A DNA stretch of 35,061 bases from a virus (IMGVR_UViG_2654587570_000013:1-35061); one strand, 5' to 3'; positions 1-6,073 are shown, numbered from the stretch's first letter. The notes: generated by a model not told the origin, from the sequence alone. A program made the numbers and translations.

Positions 1-387
1 ATGTTCAATATCATGATTCGTAAATTTGGCGAGATGACTTTCGAGAAAGCTGGTGTTGCGCGTACCGAAGAAGAAGCAATGGCCTTAGTTCTGGTAGCAC
101 TGAGATCATCACCTGAGATTATCGACGCTGAATATGTAGCCGCAGAAGGTGAGATTAAAGAGATTAAAGCAGTGGCTAAGGAATTAGGTGTTAAAGGTTT
201 CCGTAAGCTGAAACTATCCCGCGAGACTTATGTCATTGGACAGCAAGGACAATACCTAGATGAGAATAGCGCGATTGTCCTACTGAATAAGATCACCCGC
301 TATGGTTTCCAGATTGAGCAATATAAAACGTGTTTCGAATTATACGAAAAAGGTTTGCTGGATACTCTGACCATCGTTCGCGCTTAA
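1..387 (+). CDS. hypothetical protein (may be truncated at window edge)
   Basis: 128-aa ORF starting at window position 1; no motif recognised; followed by a hairpin plus T-run at 402-427. Confidence 0.4.
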   Translation: MFNIMIRKFGEMTFEKAGVARTEEEAMALVLVALRSSPEIIDAEYVAAEGEIKEIKAVAKELGVKGFRKLKLSRETYVIGQQGQYLDENSAIVLLNKITRYGFQIEQYKTCFELYEKGLLDTLTIVRA

Positions 388-401
388 TTAATTTCTAATT
401 T

Positions 402-427
402 GGTGGGTGCAATTCCCACCGCTTTTT
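402..427 (+). terminator. putative rho-independent terminator
   Basis: GGTGGG-tgcaatt-CCCACC stem-loop followed by gcttttt, immediately after the ORF ending at 387. Confidence 0.5.
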
Positions 428-444
428 AAACTGGAGAATCAAAC

Positions 445-525
445 ATGTTAGCTTTTATCTCATTCGTGGGAGGTAGTCTCACAACCATGATTAGTCTTTC
501 TTATATTGTCGTTAGTATGGGGTGA
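445..525 (+). CDS. small hydrophobic peptide (26 aa), speculative
   Basis: ATG at 445 preceded by ggag; translation MLAFISFVGGSLTTMISLSYIVVSMG is essentially one transmembrane segment. Below the ORF-track size cutoff. Confidence 0.2.
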   Translation: MLAFISFVGGSLTTMISLSYIVVSMG

Positions 526-528
526 GCA

Positions 529-654
529 ATGAAACAATTTCATGATGGCATTTCATCCAAGACATTCAAGAAAGAATATAGCGGATTGTGTATTAACTGG
601 ATTGATTTGATTGGTGCGGTTGTGTTTGGTTTGGTAATCAGCATCAACTTTTAA
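529..654 (+). CDS. small membrane peptide (41 aa), speculative
   Basis: ATG at 529; translation MKQFHDGISSKTFKKEYSGLCINWIDLIGAVVFGLVISINF has a C-terminal hydrophobic helix; sits between a terminator and the secreted-protein gene. Confidence 0.3.
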   Translation: MKQFHDGISSKTFKKEYSGLCINWIDLIGAVVFGLVISINF

Positions 655-699
655 CGATATAAATATATCGTAATTCAAATAACAAGAGGAAATTCTACT

Positions 700-945
700 A
701 TGAAAAAGATTATCGCGGGTGTTGTTCTTGCTCTGGGTTTGGTTGGTGCTGCAAATGCCGAACAATATGTACAGGGTGATAGTGTCAAGCGTGCTGCCGT
801 TGCACCTTCTTTAAATCAACTGTGTACTGAATTAGCACAGGTTGCCGGAGTTGGTGACGATGACGACTTTATTACTGCGTGTGTATGGAGTCATATCGAG
901 GATATTAATAAACGTGATGCAAAACTAACTGGAAAGAAATATTAA
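700..945 (+). CDS. small secreted/periplasmic protein of unknown function (possible moron)
   Basis: N-terminal signal peptide MKKIIAGVVLALGLVGAANA with an A-N-A signal peptidase I site; mature part has two Cys; SD agagga upstream; terminator at 962-998 downstream. Confidence 0.55.
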   Translation: MKKIIAGVVLALGLVGAANAEQYVQGDSVKRAAVAPSLNQLCTELAQVAGVGDDDDFITACVWSHIEDINKRDAKLTGKKY

Positions 946-961
946 TGACTTACTAACCAAT

Positions 962-998
962 GCCCCTATCGTTATAATACGCGGTAGGGGCGTTTTTG
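962..998 (+). terminator. putative rho-independent terminator
   Basis: GCCCCTA ... TAGGGGC stem followed by gttttt gttt. Confidence 0.5.
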
Positions 999-1010
999 TT
1001 TGGAAATGGT

Positions 1011-2690
1011 ATGAAAACTAAACTGTATTCGTATATTCGCTTCTCGTCTATGCGTCAGAATGATGGTTCGAGTTATGAACGACAAATCAGGATGGCGAGA
1101 GAGGTTGCGGCAAAGTATGACCTTGAACTGGTAAATGATTATCAGGATCTGGGTGTATCTGCGTTTAAGGGTGCTAACTCTAAAACAGGGGCGCTATCTC
1201 GTTTCCTTGATGCAATTGGTAGATCCGTTCCTGTTGGTAGCTGGCTATTCATCGAGAACTTGGACCGTTTATCCCGTGCCGATATTGTCAGTGCGCAGGA
1301 GTTATTCCTTTCAATAATCCGTAGGGGGATAACCATTGTTACTGGCATGGATAACAAGATCTACTCGCTGGATACTGTTACCGCTAACCCGATGGACCTG
1401 ATGTTCTCCATCCTTTTATTCATCCGTGGTAATGAGGAAAGCCAGACTAAGCGCAATCGTACTAACTCAAGCGCATTGATTAAGATTAAAGCTCATCAAG
1501 AAAATCCACAAAATCCGGCAGTGGCTATCGAGGAAGTTGGAAAGAATATGTGGTGGACTGATACCACTTCCGGTTATGTGTGTCCCGATCCGGTCTTCTT
1601 CCCTATTGTTCAGGAGGTTGTGGAATTACGCAGGAATGGACGGTCTACCGCCGAGATACTGGATCACCTTAACGCGACATATACACCACCACCAGCCGCA
1701 AGTCACAAGAGGCATTCAAACTGGTCACGAGCAATGATTGAAAGGTTGTTCCATACCCGCGCTTTGATTGGTATCAAGGAAATCTCTGTAGATGGCGTTA
1801 AGTATGAGTTAAAGGATTATTACCCTCGTGTGCTAGATGACGCTGAGTTTTATCACCTTAAGAAAAGCATTGGTGTTAGAGCATGTAACTATGGAGACAA
1901 AGAAGAAGCTAAACCGATCCCCCTGCTTAGTGGTGTTAATCTGCTGAAATGTGAACATTGCGGTTCCGCTATGGTTAAGGTGAAAGGAACTAACAAACGG
2001 CCTAACCAATATCGTTATTCATGCGATGCAATGCGCTCTAGTCGTATTGCATGTGTGCATACAAACTGGAGTTTTCGAGGTGATCAATTAGAGAAAGCTG
2101 TATTGCAATTGCTGGCTGATAAAATCTGGATTGCTGAGGATAAGGCTAATCCTGTTCCGGCTTTGAAAGTACAGATTGATGAGATATCACGCAAGATTGA
2201 TAACCTGATTACCCTTTCTGCTATGACTGGAGCAACGAAGGAGTTAGCCGACCAGATTACTACCCTCAATAGCGAGCGTGAAACACTCTATAATCAGATT
2301 AAGATGGCAGAAGAGGAAATGTATTCTGTGGACTCTCAAGGCTGGGAGAAGCTCGCAGAATTTGATTTAGAAGATGTTTATAACGAGGATCGCATTAAGG
2401 TCCGGTTTAAGATTAAGCAAGCTCTAAAACGGATCGGGTGTAGCAGGATTGACAAATACAAAAACTTGTTTGTATTGGAATACATTGATGGCAAGACCCA
2501 GAGAGTTGTAATAGAAAATTCAAGAGGACCGAGGAAAGGACAAATCTTTGTCGATTTGAAAACTATCAATGATAGGCAGATTCTGGAGAGTAACGGGCTT
2601 GTTCTGCATCCATGTTTAGACATGCTGACAGATAAAGACTGGAAGCCAGAAGAGGAAATACCAGGTCCATTACAGGAATTTGGAATTTAA
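1011..2690 (+). CDS. large serine recombinase (probable integrase)
   Basis: N-terminal resolvase-type catalytic domain with YIRFSSMRQ serine motif, a recombinase domain, a Cys-rich zinc ribbon (CEHCGS...C..C) and a C-terminal coiled coil. Start placed at MKTKL; the ORF track begins 15 nt earlier at 996. Confidence 0.85.
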   Translation: MKTKLYSYIRFSSMRQNDGSSYERQIRMAREVAAKYDLELVNDYQDLGVSAFKGANSKTGALSRFLDAIGRSVPVGSWLFIENLDRLSRADIVSAQELFLSIIRRGITIVTGMDNKIYSLDTVTANPMDLMFSILLFIRGNEESQTKRNRTNSSALIKIKAHQENPQNPAVAIEEVGKNMWWTDTTSGYVCPDPVFFPIVQEVVELRRNGRSTAEILDHLNATYTPPPAASHKRHSNWSRAMIERLFHTRALIGIKEISVDGVKYELKDYYPRVLDDAEFYHLKKSIGVRACNYGDKEEAKPIPLLSGVNLLKCEHCGSAMVKVKGTNKRPNQYRYSCDAMRSSRIACVHTNWSFRGDQLEKAVLQLLADKIWIAEDKANPVPALKVQIDEISRKIDNLITLSAMTGATKELADQITTLNSERETLYNQIKMAEEEMYSVDSQGWEKLAEFDLEDVYNEDRIKVRFKIKQALKRIGCSRIDKYKNLFVLEYIDGKTQRVVIENSRGPRKGQIFVDLKTINDRQILESNGLVLHPCLDMLTDKDWKPEEEIPGPLQEFGI

Positions 2691-2726
2691 GCGGACTAAA
2701 TCGACGTATAACGAGCTAAACACTTT

Positions 2727-2751
2727 AAGGGGTACATCTGTACCCCTTTTT
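2727..2751. terminator. bidirectional hairpin terminator between convergent genes
   Basis: Near-perfect palindrome AAGGGGTACA-TC-TGTACCCCTT with T-run on the plus side, between the recombinase stop (2690) and the convergent minus-strand gene end (2764). Confidence 0.5.
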
Positions 2752-2763
2752 AATTTAATTGTA

Positions 2764-3762
2764 TTAAAGAGCCTCTAAAGGGCTTAAATCGAGTTCTAAG
2801 TCTTCCGGTATTAAATCAGCTAACGGTGCATTCATCCACTGCGATAAATCTCGTTCTATGTCTTCATCACTAATGTAGTTGTTCAGATTGATTGCGTTGG
2901 TATCATCAAAATACATTGGCTTAGATGGGTTGGTGTGGATGTATTCATTGATGAATGATTTAACATCTTTCAGCTTGCTAATCGGTAGCGTTTCTGTGAA
3001 TCCGCTATTCATTACCTTACGTGGGATTTTCTTGCCCTGAATATTCTTTTTAATCCCCATTTCTAAATCACCAGCTTTCCATCCAATGTTAAACAAATGT
3101 GAGCATTCAAAGGTGATTTTCTCGCTGGTGTGCTTCTGGTGTTCTCTTACCCGTTGCATCGGATCTTTGCGAGTGGTAATTCCATATTTGAAAAACTTCT
3201 CGCCAACACGAATTAGATAAAAGTGCATAGAGCGCTGTGCAAACTTGTTTCTGATAACCTGTTTTCTACCATTCTGAATTGATTTAAGTACACCCCTAAC
3301 CAAAGGGCATGTTAACCCACCTTGTCTGCGGTTATTGTGTAAATCACCTTTCTTGTGAATCTTTCCGTGGCACTTACAACGAAGAATTAGTTTAGTGTCA
3401 ACACCCTGATAAGGTTCAGCCAGACCTAACACATCCCACCCTATCGGCTTGTAGAACTTGCGAGCGTTTTCTAAGTGTTCTTCTTCGGTAAATCTAAACT
3501 TCTTCTTAGGCGGTGATACTCTATCTTTGCCAGTAAACTGACCAGTTAGAACATGACTAATACATGGCGTTTTAACCTTTCCGTTAACTTCTATGCAAAC
3601 TTTGGTGTTCTGGAATGGTTTCTTTACAGGAAGCACAAAACCACTGTATAACCATCCATGCGCTTGACAAACTTTAATGATTCTGGTTTCATATTCGACC
3701 GGAGGGGTCGCACGTTTGCTTTTTGCGGTAAATTCGATATCCTTTGCTAAAGTAGTATTCAT
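2764..3762 (-). CDS. putative nuclease with Cys/His zinc-finger-like segment and a GIY-YIG-like motif
   Basis: 332 aa; mid-protein HFYLIRVGEKFFKYGITTRKDPMQRVREH resembles the GIY...YIG...R..H core of GIY-YIG nucleases; upstream CKCHGKIH...C cluster; acidic C-terminus. Confidence 0.45.
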   Translation of the reverse strand: MNTTLAKDIEFTAKSKRATPPVEYETRIIKVCQAHGWLYSGFVLPVKKPFQNTKVCIEVNGKVKTPCISHVLTGQFTGKDRVSPPKKKFRFTEEEHLENARKFYKPIGWDVLGLAEPYQGVDTKLILRCKCHGKIHKKGDLHNNRRQGGLTCPLVRGVLKSIQNGRKQVIRNKFAQRSMHFYLIRVGEKFFKYGITTRKDPMQRVREHQKHTSEKITFECSHLFNIGWKAGDLEMGIKKNIQGKKIPRKVMNSGFTETLPISKLKDVKSFINEYIHTNPSKPMYFDDTNAINLNNYISDEDIERDLSQWMNAPLADLIPEDLELDLSPLEAL

Positions 3763-3808: not shown

Positions 3809-4066
3809 TTAATTATTGTAGTTTTGGAAACCAGTAAGATCACAAAATGAATCAGTATCATGTGCAGGAGAACGATGCTCTGCTTCGTCAGAGAAAATGT
3901 TGGCTACCGGAGATTCCACTTTAACTTCCAGTGCTTCTTCAACATCTGACTTAACTTCTTCGACCACTGGTTCAACTGCTGGAGATTCTTCTTTTGTTTC
4001 TTCAATGACGATCTCAGGTTCTTTCATTGCTTCAACCAGAGACGGATCAACTTCGTCGAATACCAC
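3809..4066 (-). CDS. small highly acidic protein (unknown; DNA-mimic-like composition)
   Basis: 85 aa, about one third Asp/Glu; apparent GTG start. The overlapping plus-strand Ser/Thr-rich ORF (3897..4121) looks like its antisense shadow. Confidence 0.35.
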   Translation of the reverse strand: MVFDEVDPSLVEAMKEPEIVIEETKEESPAVEPVVEEVKSDVEEALEVKVESPVANIFSDEAEHRSPAHDTDSFCDLTGFQNYNN

Positions 4067-4146
4067 TTTATCATCTGCGGTATATTTGTCTATAATGAAA
4101 AATGGTCAGAAATATAGCTAACGTCGCCAGCATATTCTAACAAAAA

Positions 4147-4166
4147 AGCGCCCACTGGAGGCGCTT
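4147..4166 (-). terminator. putative terminator at end of the late operon
   Basis: GCGCC-cactgga-GGCGC hairpin; on the minus strand it is followed by a T-run, immediately after the endolysin gene. Confidence 0.45.
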
Positions 4167-4171
4167 TAATT

Positions 4172-4525
4172 TTATCCATTCCACCGTGATTTTTTTGATC
4201 TGGAATCAATATGCGTAAAGGTTTTATATTTTCCTAAGCCGTATTGAGTAGGATATTTCCCATCAAGATAAGCATGAACAATATCAGGCGAGACACCCTT
4301 GATAACAATGTCAGCCGCGCGGCCTCGAACATGATAGCTATTGGTTGCGCCGCCTACATTCTTGTTATGAGTCGGGCAACGGTTCCCACTGTTAATAATC
4401 ACTGGTTTACCGAAGTGCTCTCGTACATCCTCAAGAATCACCAGTAATTCAGCGTCGATTGTATCATAATCACATTTTCCGCATTTACATTTAAATTCCT
4501 TGCGAGAAAAATGCTTACTTAACAT
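4172..4525 (-). CDS. peptidase M15 family cell-wall hydrolase (probable endolysin)
   Basis: SGNRCPTHNKNVGGATNSYHVRGRAADI ... FTHID matches the zinc-binding H/D/H signature of M15 peptidases; 117 aa, no signal peptide; last gene of the late operon. Confidence 0.8.
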   Translation of the reverse strand: MLSKHFSRKEFKCKCGKCDYDTIDAELLVILEDVREHFGKPVIINSGNRCPTHNKNVGGATNSYHVRGRAADIVIKGVSPDIVHAYLDGKYPTQYGLGKYKTFTHIDSRSKKSRWNG

Positions 4526-4534
4526 ATTACCCCC

Positions 4535-4882
4535 TTAGATCATTTCGAAGATATAACCAATAAAGCGCATACCCTTGATATAATAAGGAGCAGTGCCTAC
4601 ACACACCGCGCGTGCATCACCCAGACAGTTAAAGCTATAAGGATTAACTACATCGACTTCTTGCCCTACACGAAAACGATATTTAGGACGTTTAGCCAAT
4701 GTAGCGACACAAAACACGGTCCCCTTTTCATGATCACGGATACATTCTTTATATTGTTTATGTTTAACTCTCTTCGCCTCAAAATCATAGGTCATAGATT
4801 CTGGGCTAATGCCATTAATAAAAATACCGGAAAGCTGATCAACCGGATAAGTAGGAAATTCAGTGAAAATATTTTTAGCCAT
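4535..4882 (-). CDS. hypothetical protein
   Basis: 115-aa ORF co-oriented and tightly packed in the operon; no recognisable motif. Confidence 0.5.
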   Translation of the reverse strand: MAKNIFTEFPTYPVDQLSGIFINGISPESMTYDFEAKRVKHKQYKECIRDHEKGTVFCVATLAKRPKYRFRVGQEVDVVNPYSFNCLGDARAVCVGTAPYYIKGMRFIGYIFEMI

Positions 4883-5605: not shown

Positions 5606-5776
5606 TTAGCCCCCTAATAACGAAAAGACCCCCGCCAGTGTCCTTAGCAATTGTTCATCCACGGTCATAGCCGGGAGTTCAAGCCCAAAGGACGTTAGCA
5701 GAGGTCTAATAGCTACGTTATAAGTGAGGGCGACAATCAAGAGATAACCAAAATATTTCTTAAGTTTATTCTTCAT
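5606..5776 (-). CDS. small membrane protein (56 aa), speculative
   Basis: Translation MKNKLKKYFGYLLIVALTYNVAIRPLL... has one transmembrane helix; its stop abuts the SD of the next gene. Below the ORF-track cutoff. Confidence 0.35.
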   Translation of the reverse strand: MKNKLKKYFGYLLIVALTYNVAIRPLLTSFGLELPAMTVDEQLLRTLAGVFSLLGG

Positions 5777-5794: not shown

Positions 5795-6073
5795 TTATTT
5801 TTGTTTGAGTATGTCGAGAACTTGGTCAAATTTGGCGTCCATCGCAACCACTTTCTTCTCTATACCGTGTAGTGTTTGTTCCATTTGGTAAACACGTTCA
5901 GCAATCTGAGTATGGTTATTCTGCATCGTCTCAAACTTCTGGTTTAACAATGCGTCGCTGGATTCCAATTTCGACAATCTATTTTCTGTGGCTAATTGAT
6001 TTCGGTGAAGTCTCCAAAGCCCACCACAAATTAAGGCGATAACACCGATACCGCCATATATAATTTCAGTCAT
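5795..6073 (-). CDS. membrane-anchored coiled-coil protein (holin/spanin-like or exclusion protein, unassigned)
   Basis: 92 aa; N-terminal transmembrane segment GGIGVIALICGGLW followed by a heptad-like coiled coil; immediately downstream of the J-like gene. Confidence 0.5.
   Translation of the reverse strand: MTEIIYGGIGVIALICGGLWRLHRNQLATENRLSKLESSDALLNQKFETMQNNHTQIAERVYQMEQTLHGIEKKVVAMDAKFDQVLDILKQK

What the first reader, a model, noticed from the sequence alone, without database searches (positions are those of the whole stretch)
445..945. Two tiny membrane-peptide ORFs and a secreted 81-aa protein form a candidate moron cassette
Between two terminators lie a 26-aa and a 41-aa hydrophobic ORF, then a signal-peptide protein with two Cys. 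A 16-bp palindrome CGATATA-aa-TATATCG (659-674) sits about 30 bp upstream of its start. The cassette is outside the structural and early operons, as expected for a lysogenic-conversion or superinfection-exclusion module.
Basis: partly seen in the sequence, partly recalled or inferred. Interest (0 to 1): 0.4.

Follow-up and report, generated by a model that had tools for sequence, protein, structure and literature searches.

The report
Conserved tiny membrane genes, swappable cargo
At the integrase end of an uncharacterised E. coli/Salmonella prophage sit two real but almost never annotated micro-genes for membrane peptides (26 and 41 aa), followed by an exported 81-aa protein that is one of several interchangeable cargo genes; their function is unknown, and an effect on the lysogen's cell envelope is the best guess.

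Summary
ORFs lie at 445-525 (26 aa), 529-654 (41 aa) and 700-945 (81 aa, Sec-type signal peptide, two invariant Cys), between hairpin+T-run sites at 401-421 and 959-994. The palindrome is real but lies at 655-670, not 659-674.

The window is a temperate siphovirus prophage found in 58 of 5426 complete E. coli genomes, with relatives in Salmonella. Position 1 lies about 36 nt from attL, and a large serine integrase starts at 1011.

Comparison of 54 related loci changes the picture:
- **Small ORFs:** they are conserved core genes. ORF41 is intact in 54/54 loci (pN/pS 0.03-0.48, in-frame indels, invariant N-terminus MKQFHDGISSKTFKK). ORF26 is intact in 53/54.
- **Cargo:** only the mature part of the 81-aa gene (759-961) is exchanged. 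Alternatives include a 137/139-aa beta-rich protein, a 75-aa two-Cys protein and a 348-aa nuclease-like protein. The signal peptide and the terminator hairpin serve as shared flanks.

So the 81-aa gene is moron-like cargo, but the micro-ORFs are not part of a mobile cassette. None of the three matches Pfam, PHROGs, PADLOC, NCBIfam or PDB. No promoter was found, so expression in the lysogen and any exclusion function remain inferences.

The parts
1..387 (+). First prophage gene after attL (128 aa, phrog_14908, function unknown). Its homologue is translationally coupled to ORF26 in one Salmonella-type relative (L012).
401..421 (+). Hairpin plus T-run (terminator-like) between the 128-aa gene and ORF26. 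The stem is kept by paired changes in L005/L006. It is absent in Salmonella-type loci.
445..525 (+). ORF26: a 26-aa, entirely hydrophobic, single-helix micro-protein. SD GGAG lies at 433-436. It is never annotated by PGAP in the loci examined.
529..654 (+). ORF41: a 41-aa tail-anchored micro-protein with an invariant basic N-terminus (MKQFHDGISSKTFKK), a C-terminal transmembrane helix and a conserved ending SIN(F/I). It is in frame with ORF26, separated by TGA GCA.
654..671 (.). Conserved palindrome/hairpin ACGATATA-aa-TATATCGT directly after the ORF41 stop. It is present whenever cargo follows ORF41 and absent when the int terminator follows directly.
672..699 (+). Conserved leader of the cargo gene with SD AAGAGGA (684-690). 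The leader is repeated before the second cargo gene in two-cargo loci.
700..945 (+). 81-aa exported protein. The signal peptide is 700-759 (ANA|E cleavage motif). The mature 61 aa is predicted as a two-helix hairpin with invariant Cys42 and Cys61.
759..961 (+). Segment that is actually exchanged between related prophages (the mature-protein coding part). Homology to relatives with other cargo stops at about 758 and resumes at 962.
959..994 (+). Strong conserved hairpin plus T-run (terminator of the unit), with a compensatory stem change in Salmonella-type loci. Its loop carries TATAAT, a candidate -10 for int.
1011..2690 (+). Large serine integrase (Resolvase, Recombinase and Zn_ribbon_recom domains).

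Best explanation
SHOWN: The region holds three real protein-coding genes at the attL/integrase end of a temperate siphovirus prophage of E. coli, with relatives in Salmonella. ORF26 and ORF41 are conserved core genes of this phage group. ORF26 is a bare transmembrane helix. ORF41 has a cytoplasmic, invariant, basic N-terminal peptide anchored by a C-terminal helix. The 81-aa gene encodes a Sec-exported helical hairpin with two Cys. It is one allele of a cargo position whose mature-protein part is replaced by recombination between shared flanks (leader plus signal peptide on the left, terminator hairpin on the right). Most alternative cargoes are also envelope proteins. INFERRED: The unit is an envelope-acting accessory module. 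The two micro-proteins sit in the inner membrane, the exported cargo acts in the periplasm, and together or separately they alter the envelope of the cell carrying the phage. The most plausible effect is blocking DNA entry of superinfecting phages, in the manner of T4 Imm/Sp or HK97 gp15. In that reading the cargo is the fast-evolving, swappable specificity part. The conserved hairpin after ORF41 most likely acts at the RNA level, as an intercistronic stabiliser or processing element, or as a regulator-binding site controlling cargo expression.
For: **The small ORFs code for protein.** ORF41 is intact at 40-41 aa in 54/54 loci, with 21 protein variants and a 3-nt in-frame indel. Its pN/pS is 0.03-0.48, and the first 15 codons carry synonymous changes while the peptide stays nearly invariant. 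ORF26 is intact in 53/54 loci, with a conserved pattern (SF...Y[ILVM]VV) and pN/pS of 0.3-0.6 for most pairs. In Salmonella-type loci the start and stop codons overlap (ATGA) with neighbouring genes. PGAP calls ORF41 in some genomes.

**The 81-aa gene is real.** There are 12 homologues in E. coli, both Cys are invariant, and pN/pS is 0.33.

**Cargo is exchanged.** Homology breakpoints lie at about 758 and 962. The same signal peptide is fused to 81-aa, 75-aa and 137/139-aa mature domains, and there are at least 8 cargo types.

**Cargo is mostly envelope-directed.** Alternatives carry signal peptides, a lipobox protein (L013) or a membrane-anchored coiled coil (L002). The 139-aa allele folds confidently (pLDDT 87) into a beta-rich domain that resembles phage lipoproteins and, more weakly, LolA/LolB.

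**Location.** The unit lies about 0.4 kb from attL, upstream of int, bracketed by hairpin+T-run sites, on the strand opposite the late genes.

**Hairpin.** It is conserved between E. coli and Salmonella more strongly than the flanking coding sequence. All variants keep pairing (C>U giving G.U, and one A-U to U-A double change).
Against: No sigma-70-like promoter was found for the unit, and fewer promoter-like sites were found than in shuffles. Host genes at attL point away, so expression in the lysogen is unproven. In the circular phage, a GIY-YIG nuclease gene reads across attP towards this region. That would fit expression during infection rather than lysogeny. ORF26, ORF41 and the 81-aa protein match no defence, exclusion or other family (also for the 81-aa protein). 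G+C of the 81-aa gene (0.419) equals the genome average (0.418), so it shows no foreign composition. Two cargo types (62 aa and 348 aa, the latter with CapR/T5orf172-like domains) have no export signal, so the position is not exclusively envelope-directed. Conservation of the micro-ORFs in every relative fits a core phage function as well as it fits an accessory one. Support for the hairpin rests on one compensatory event and is not significant (97/500 shuffles).
Confidence: 0.4

Rival explanations
1. ORF26 and ORF41 are core phage functions unrelated to the cargo. They would be made from the circular genome during infection or establishment, co-directional with int. They could, for example, modulate a host membrane protein such as a protease or transporter to bias the lysis-lysogeny decision or prepare the membrane. 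The exported genes would then be independent morons that landed in permissive gaps around them.
For: The micro-ORFs are present in essentially all relatives, whereas the cargo varies and can be absent (L011-type loci: ORF41, then terminator, then int). They are translationally coupled to upstream non-cargo genes in Salmonella-type loci. No lysogen promoter was found. A gene at the other prophage end reads across attP towards this operon. The invariant cytoplasmic N-terminus of ORF41 suggests a conserved intracellular partner.
Against: In the window lineage a terminator-like hairpin separates them from the upstream gene. In L011 an exported two-Cys protein sits between them with overlapping start and stop codons, which suggests co-expression with cargo. 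No similarity to cIII, Kil or any known regulator was found.
Confidence: 0.3
2. The exported cargo proteins are orphan immunity or inhibitor proteins. They would protect the lysogen from periplasm-acting toxins or enzymes such as colicins, T6SS effectors or lysozymes, rather than from phages.
For: They are small periplasmic proteins with disulfide-forming Cys pairs. Alleles are replaced under one signal peptide. Distribution is narrow and strain-specific.
Against: No sequence or fold match to any known immunity or inhibitor family was found. No cognate toxin gene lies nearby.
Confidence: 0.1
3. ORF26 and/or ORF41 are type I toxin-like membrane peptides that stabilise the prophage by post-segregational killing or abortive infection, controlled by an antisense RNA.
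For: Their size and hydrophobicity resemble Ibs, ShoB or TisB-class peptides (own knowledge). The AT-rich palindrome read on the minus strand contains TATATT (sequence).
Against: Both ORFs have good SD sequences and are operon-coupled by ATGA overlaps to flanking genes in relatives, which is unlike translationally silenced type I toxins. No antisense promoter passed the scan. There was no Rfam hit (best E 0.52). ORF41 has its hydrophilic part at the N-terminus, the reverse of most type I toxins (own knowledge).
Confidence: 0.07
4. The small ORFs are chance ORFs in an AT-rich spacer, and only the 81-aa gene is real. This is the current RefSeq annotation for most genomes.
For: PGAP annotates only the 81-aa gene in most records. 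ORFs of 20-40 codons are abundant on both strands.
Against: Both ORFs are intact in 53-54 of 54 loci at up to about 40% protein divergence. Substitutions are biased towards synonymous changes, indels are in frame, and they are coupled to neighbouring genes.
Confidence: 0.03

Closest known systems
Phage morons / lysogenic-conversion genes next to int-att (e.g. HK97 gp15 exclusion moron; P22/SfV gtrABC beside int)
   Same: An accessory gene sits at a prophage end beside the integrase, is followed by its own terminator, and is present or replaced among otherwise collinear relatives. Its products go to the envelope (concept from PMC3594210 and own knowledge).
   Different: No own promoter was found and composition is not atypical. 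What is exchanged is only the mature-protein part under a shared signal peptide, not a promoter-gene-terminator unit. There is no sequence similarity to gp15 or Gtr proteins.
T4 Imm and Sp; P1 Sim (small membrane or periplasmic superinfection-exclusion proteins)
   Same: The combination of very small inner-membrane proteins with a small exported protein is the anatomy of known injection-blocking systems (own knowledge).
   Different: No homology was found. ORF26 and ORF41 are much smaller than Imm (83 aa). Exclusion activity is untested, and expression in lysogens is unknown.
Bacterial micro-membrane proteins (under 50 aa) that modulate larger membrane proteins (e.g. MgrB, AcrZ, MgtS, KdpF, SpoVM)
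   Same: They share the size class and a single helix. ORF41 has a short conserved soluble peptide that could contact a partner (the family comparison is own knowledge).
   Different: No sequence relationship was found. These genes are phage-borne, and no partner is known.
Type I toxin peptides (Ibs, ShoB, TisB, Ldr, Hok)
   Same: They are short hydrophobic peptides encoded in mobile or accessory DNA.
   Different: These ORFs are operon-coupled, have strong SD sequences, show no antisense RNA signal and no Rfam match.
H-NS high-affinity nucleation site tCG(t/a)TA(a/t)ATt (Lang et al. 2007, PMC2094087)
   Same: The minus-strand reading of the palindrome, ACGATATATT (662-671), matches the proV site TCGATATATT at 9 of 10 positions. 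The L012 variant (CGTTATATT) is the other allowed form.
   Different: The motif occurs in the window exactly as often as in shuffles (16 against 16.1), so the match carries no statistical weight. Binding is untested.

Membership tests
Moron (independent accessory transcription unit in a phage genome) | Present in some genomes and absent or replaced in otherwise collinear relatives | tested here: met
   Met for the 81-aa gene: at least 8 alternative cargoes, or none, at the same position. Not met for ORF26 and ORF41, which are present in 53-54 of 54 loci.
Moron (independent accessory transcription unit in a phage genome) | Own promoter | tested here: inconclusive
   The consensus scan finds only one weak site, inside ORF26 (478-507, 9/12 match). 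That is fewer sites than in shuffles. There are no transcript data.
Moron (independent accessory transcription unit in a phage genome) | Own factor-independent terminator | tested here: met
   Hairpin 959-994 at -23.7 kcal/mol (z -4.7) with a T-run. It is conserved, with a compensatory stem change in relatives.
Moron (independent accessory transcription unit in a phage genome) | Nucleotide composition different from neighbouring genes | tested here: not met
   The 81-aa gene has G+C 0.419 against 0.418 for the genome. ORF26 and ORF41 are lower (0.38 and 0.34), but they are the conserved part.
Moron (independent accessory transcription unit in a phage genome) | Expressed from the repressed prophage | not testable with these tools
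   Needs RNA-seq or Ribo-seq of a lysogen.
Sec-exported (signal peptidase I) protein | Basic n-region, hydrophobic h-region, and small residues at -3/-1 before the cleavage site | tested here: met
   The sequence reads MKK / IIAGVVLALGLVGAA / N-A | E, with GRAVY 1.57 over residues 1-20. The A-x-A motif is conserved in all homologues. This was judged by rule; no dedicated predictor was available.
Superinfection-exclusion protein | Expression reduces infection by the same or other phages at the entry step | not testable with these tools
   No homology to known Sie or defence families (PADLOC and PHROGs).
Type I toxin-antitoxin | Small hydrophobic toxin ORF with a cis- or trans-encoded antisense RNA, in a stand-alone locus | tested here: not met
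   Hydrophobic peptides are present, but they are operon-coupled by ATGA overlaps. No antisense promoter was found and there was no Rfam family hit.
Holin / lysis membrane protein | Encoded in the lysis cassette with the endolysin and transcribed late | tested here: not met
   The endolysin (M15 peptidase) is at 4172-4525 on the opposite strand. Separate membrane-protein candidates lie at 5606-5776 and 5795-6073. ORF26 and ORF41 are on the int strand.
Structured RNA hairpin (654-671) | Pairing maintained by compensatory substitutions beyond chance | tested here: inconclusive
   All cells pair (100%), with one double change and two G.U changes. However, 97 of 500 shuffles do as well. Predicted stability is only -5.7 kcal/mol.

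The most novel reading that the evidence does not exclude
ORF26, ORF41 and the exported protein form one three-part inner-membrane/periplasm system. The two invariant micro-proteins would be a fixed membrane platform; the invariant cytoplasmic peptide of ORF41 could contact a host or phage factor. The exported subunit, exchanged by recombination under a shared signal peptide, would set specificity. That would be a previously undescribed modular exclusion or defence architecture built largely from proteins too small for standard annotation.
Probability: 0.12. Interest if true: 0.6.

Novelty: new member of a known kind. Interest (0 to 1): 0.35.

Why it matters
It adds two conserved micro-protein families (26 and 40-41 aa) that genome annotation misses almost completely. 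ORF26 is never called and ORF41 only occasionally. They occur in a prophage group carried by about 1% of complete E. coli genomes and by Salmonella. It also documents cargo exchange in which a shared leader, signal peptide and terminator act as recombination flanks for unrelated exported domains. If the module blocks superinfection or protects the envelope, it would be a compact new system and a convenient scaffold for testing exported phage accessory proteins. If not, it remains an ordinary prophage accessory region of unknown function.

Tried and rejected
**Family and database searches**
- Pfam, PHROGs, PADLOC and NCBIfam gave no hit for ORF26, ORF41 or the 81-aa protein.
- An HMM profile of the 81-aa family against 1.84 billion representatives found only itself plus signal-peptide fragments.
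- The PDB sequence search and Foldseek on the 81-aa model gave nothing meaningful (best E 3.6).
- Rfam over 1-3000 gave nothing near threshold.
- Searches of phage GenBank by megablast, blastn and tblastn found no related cultured phage. The nearest integrases are about 30% identical (Bcep176, YbcK).
- GTDB species representatives carry neither ORF41 nor a close integrase, apart from a 512-bp probable contaminant.
- Literature searches for the integration site or the protein accessions returned nothing.

**Hypotheses tested and set aside**
- **Palindrome as a repeated operator:** rejected, since there is no second copy at up to 2 mismatches.
- **Palindrome as an H-NS site:** the motif match is at chance frequency.
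- **Promoter for the unit:** not found.
- **The 81-aa protein and the 75-aa two-Cys cargoes as one family:** L005 and L011 are related to each other (34% identity, E 2e-7). The 81-aa profile aligns to L005 only through the signal peptide and about 20 further residues, and not to L011.
- **Holin role:** rejected on position and strand.
- **TGA read-through fusion of ORF26 and ORF41:** the two ORFs are in frame, and ENA record P0022 shows a 68-aa fusion. The arrangement is not conserved in relatives, so this is most likely a genetic-code artefact.

Full report
**1. What is in the sequence**

The plus strand of 1-2700 reads as follows:
- a 128-aa gene at 1-387;
- a hairpin plus T-run at 401-421;
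- a 26-aa ORF at 445-525;
- a 41-aa ORF at 529-654;
- an AT-rich palindrome;
- an 81-aa ORF at 700-945;
- a strong hairpin plus T-run at 959-994;
- a 559-aa gene from 1011.

The 559-aa protein is a large serine integrase with Resolvase, Recombinase and Zn_ribbon_recom domains.

The palindrome CGATATA-aa-TATATCG is at 655-670, or 654-671 with one more pair. It is not at 659-674. It ends 30 nt before the ATG at 700.

ORF26 has no charged residue (GRAVY 1.64). ORF41 has a basic hydrophilic N-terminal 19 aa and a hydrophobic C-terminal 22 aa. The 81-aa protein begins with a typical Sec signal (MKK, hydrophobic core, A-N-A|E) and has two Cys. ORF26 has an SD (GGAG) 8 nt upstream. ORF41 starts 3 nt after the ORF26 stop, in the same frame, behind GGGGTGA. 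The 81-aa gene has AAGAGGA.

The two hairpins fold at -11.4 kcal/mol (z -2.7) and -23.7 kcal/mol (z -4.7).

**2. Where it is**

The rest of the window encodes, on the minus strand:
- a nuclease-like protein and an M15 endolysin;
- two small membrane proteins;
- tail fibres, a tape-measure protein and a major tail protein;
- a capsid protein, a portal protein and a terminase.

An Ant/Rha-type regulator region follows. This is a temperate siphovirus.

No cultured phage is related at the DNA level. The nearest phage integrases are about 30% identical.

The same element is a chromosomal prophage in 58 of 5426 complete E. coli genomes. In these, window position 1 lies about 36 nt from a truncated host gene, either hicB or ycdX. 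The studied unit therefore sits at the very end of the prophage, between attL and int. At the other prophage end a GIY-YIG nuclease gene reads towards attR. In the circular phage it would read across attP towards position 1.

**3. The small ORFs are genes**

I collected 54 related loci from E. coli genomes, IMG/VR, metagenomes, Logan assemblies and Salmonella enterica.

*ORF41*
- It is intact, at 40-41 aa, in all 54 loci, as 21 different protein sequences.
- Length varies by one in-frame codon.
- pN/pS is 0.03-0.48 in every informative pair.
- The first 15 codons carry several synonymous differences, including TCC/AGC serine. The peptide MKQFHDGISSKTFKK is invariant in 10 of the 11 sequences aligned; only a few of the 21 variants seen over all 54 loci differ in it.

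*ORF26*
- It is intact in 53 of 54 loci; L034 has a frameshift.
- It keeps the pattern M-x-x-L-x-S-F...Y-[ILVM]-V-V at down to about 40% identity.
- pN/pS is 0.3-0.6 for most pairs. It is about 1 against the MKLLELL type, which may be an analogous replacement.

In Salmonella-type loci both ORFs overlap their neighbours by ATGA. PGAP annotates ORF41 in a few genomes and never annotates ORF26. Chance ORFs are excluded.

**4. The 81-aa gene is swappable cargo**

Twelve homologues, all from E. coli, share 73-98% identity with both Cys invariant. A profile search of 1.84 billion representatives finds nothing else. pN/pS against a divergent allele is 0.33. AlphaFold gives a signal helix plus a two-helix hairpin; confidence is 78-93 over residues 31-70 and the overall pLDDT is 69. 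It has no fold neighbours.

In relatives with different cargo, homology to the window runs through 388-758 and resumes at 962. The exchanged segment is therefore the mature-protein coding part. The leader plus signal peptide and the terminator hairpin are the common flanks.

Cargo types and arrangements seen:

| Cargo or arrangement | Notes |
|---|---|
| 81/82 aa | the window's type |
| 113 aa membrane-anchored coiled coil plus 81 aa | two cargo genes in tandem |
| 132-139 aa beta-rich exported protein | same signal peptide as the 81-aa protein |
| 75 aa two-Cys exported protein | L005 |
| 348 aa | CapR/T5orf172-like domains, no export signal |
| IS911 insertion | L006 |
| No gene after ORF41 | seen in L011 and in L013-L015 |
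| 75-aa exported two-Cys protein between ORF26 and ORF41 | L011 |
| 62-aa protein between ORF26 and ORF41, plus a lipoprotein before ORF26 | L013-L015 (and L055/L056, which also carry a 134-aa cargo) |

The 139-aa allele models confidently (pLDDT 87). It resembles uncharacterised phage lipoproteins (E 8e-5 to 1e-3) and, weakly, LolA/LolB. The two 75-aa two-Cys proteins are related to each other (E 2e-7). Their relation to the 81-aa protein is uncertain.

**5. The palindrome**

It is single-copy in the window. As a bare 7-bp inverted repeat it is not unusual (19 observed against 12.6 expected).

It is nevertheless conserved from E. coli to Salmonella, together with the following leader. That conservation is stronger than in the flanking coding sequence. 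It is present exactly when a cargo gene follows ORF41.

Its variants keep pairing. C655 to T gives G.U in at least 14 loci, and L012 has a double change (A-U to U-A). With so few events this is not significant (97/500 shuffles), and the RNA hairpin is weak (-5.7 kcal/mol).

Its minus-strand reading matches the H-NS high-affinity motif at 9 of 10 positions (PMC2094087). That motif occurs in the window at chance frequency.

It is therefore a real conserved element of unresolved role. It could be an intercistronic RNA hairpin or a regulator site.

**6. Expression**

No convincing sigma-70 promoter precedes the unit. Host genes at attL are divergent. Whether the unit is expressed in lysogens is therefore the main open question. 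It decides between the accessory-module reading and the core-function rival.

**7. Interpretation**

*Shown:* there are three real genes; the micro-ORFs are conserved core; the exported gene is exchangeable cargo; most cargoes are envelope-directed; the unit lies at the att/int end and is bounded by terminators.

*Inferred:* this is an envelope-acting module, most plausibly for superinfection exclusion, by analogy with T4 Imm/Sp, P1 Sim and HK97 gp15 (own knowledge; PMC3594210 for the moron concept).

*Rivals:*
- a core infection or establishment function of the micro-proteins, with unrelated morons around them;
- orphan periplasmic immunity proteins;
- type I toxin-like peptides, which is disfavoured by the operon coupling and the lack of an antisense signal;
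- chance ORFs, which the comparative data refute.

**8. Verdict**

The novelty is modest. These are new orphan families, including two unannotated micro-proteins, in a known kind of genomic niche. The cargo-exchange design is clear.

Noticed in passing
window 959-1010; L011 4126-4168; L013 4127-4155: The loop of the conserved terminator hairpin before int carries TATAAT. In relatives it forms a 10/12 promoter-like site (TTCACC or TTAAAA, 17-nt spacer, TATAAT) about 30 nt upstream of the int start. A terminator and a candidate int promoter are therefore superimposed. The stem shows a compensatory change in Salmonella-type loci (GCCCCTA..TAGGGGC to GCCCCTC..GAGGGGC).
   Followed up: partly
attL flanks: L001, L004, L006, L008 (hicB); L002, L003, L005, L007, L009, L010, L011-L015, L054-L056 (ycdX); L057 (next to ydiJ-like genes): Closely related prophages with serine integrases that seem more than 90% identical (DNA over window 1-3000 is 93-99% identical) are inserted in at least two, possibly three, different host genes. 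This suggests recent retargeting of a large serine integrase or several attB sites.
   Followed up: no
window 2764-3762 (-); L009 2812-3858; L041 8622-9686: Three related nuclease-like proteins (CapR-homology repeats plus a T5orf172/GIY-YIG-like domain) occur in this phage group. One converges on int, one lies at the far prophage end reading across attP, and one occupies the cargo position in some relatives.
   Followed up: partly
window 445-654; protein P0022: ORF26 and ORF41 are in the same frame, separated only by TGA GCA. An ENA metagenome record reports them as one 68-aa protein with Trp at the TGA. This is probably a genetic-code artefact, because the in-frame arrangement is not kept in Salmonella-type relatives.
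   Followed up: partly
window 148-375 (residues 50-125 of the 128-aa protein): The C-terminal domain of the first prophage gene is 46% identical to hypothetical proteins of T4-like Krischvirus phages (RB49, Phi1, GEC-3S). RefSeq labels it 'beta/alpha barrel domain-containing', which looks doubtful for an 80-aa domain.
   Followed up: no
L042 (JANCAF010000145.1, 512 bp): A 512-bp contig in an Actinacidiphila cocklensis assembly encodes a fragment 83% identical to this enterobacterial integrase. It is most likely assembly contamination.
   Followed up: no
window 5606-5776 (-) and 5795-6073 (-): Two small membrane proteins lie upstream of the endolysin region: a 56-aa protein, and a 92-aa protein with an N-terminal helix plus coiled coil. 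They are the likely holin or spanin candidates. The ORF directly upstream of the endolysin (4535-4882) has no hydrophobic segment.
   Followed up: no
window 3809-4165 (-): The 118-aa ORF annotated at this position in the 98.8%-identical prophage of strain PRO_A-1412-6M-A is interrupted by stop codons in the window. Only an 85-aa GTG-started acidic ORF remains.
   Followed up: no
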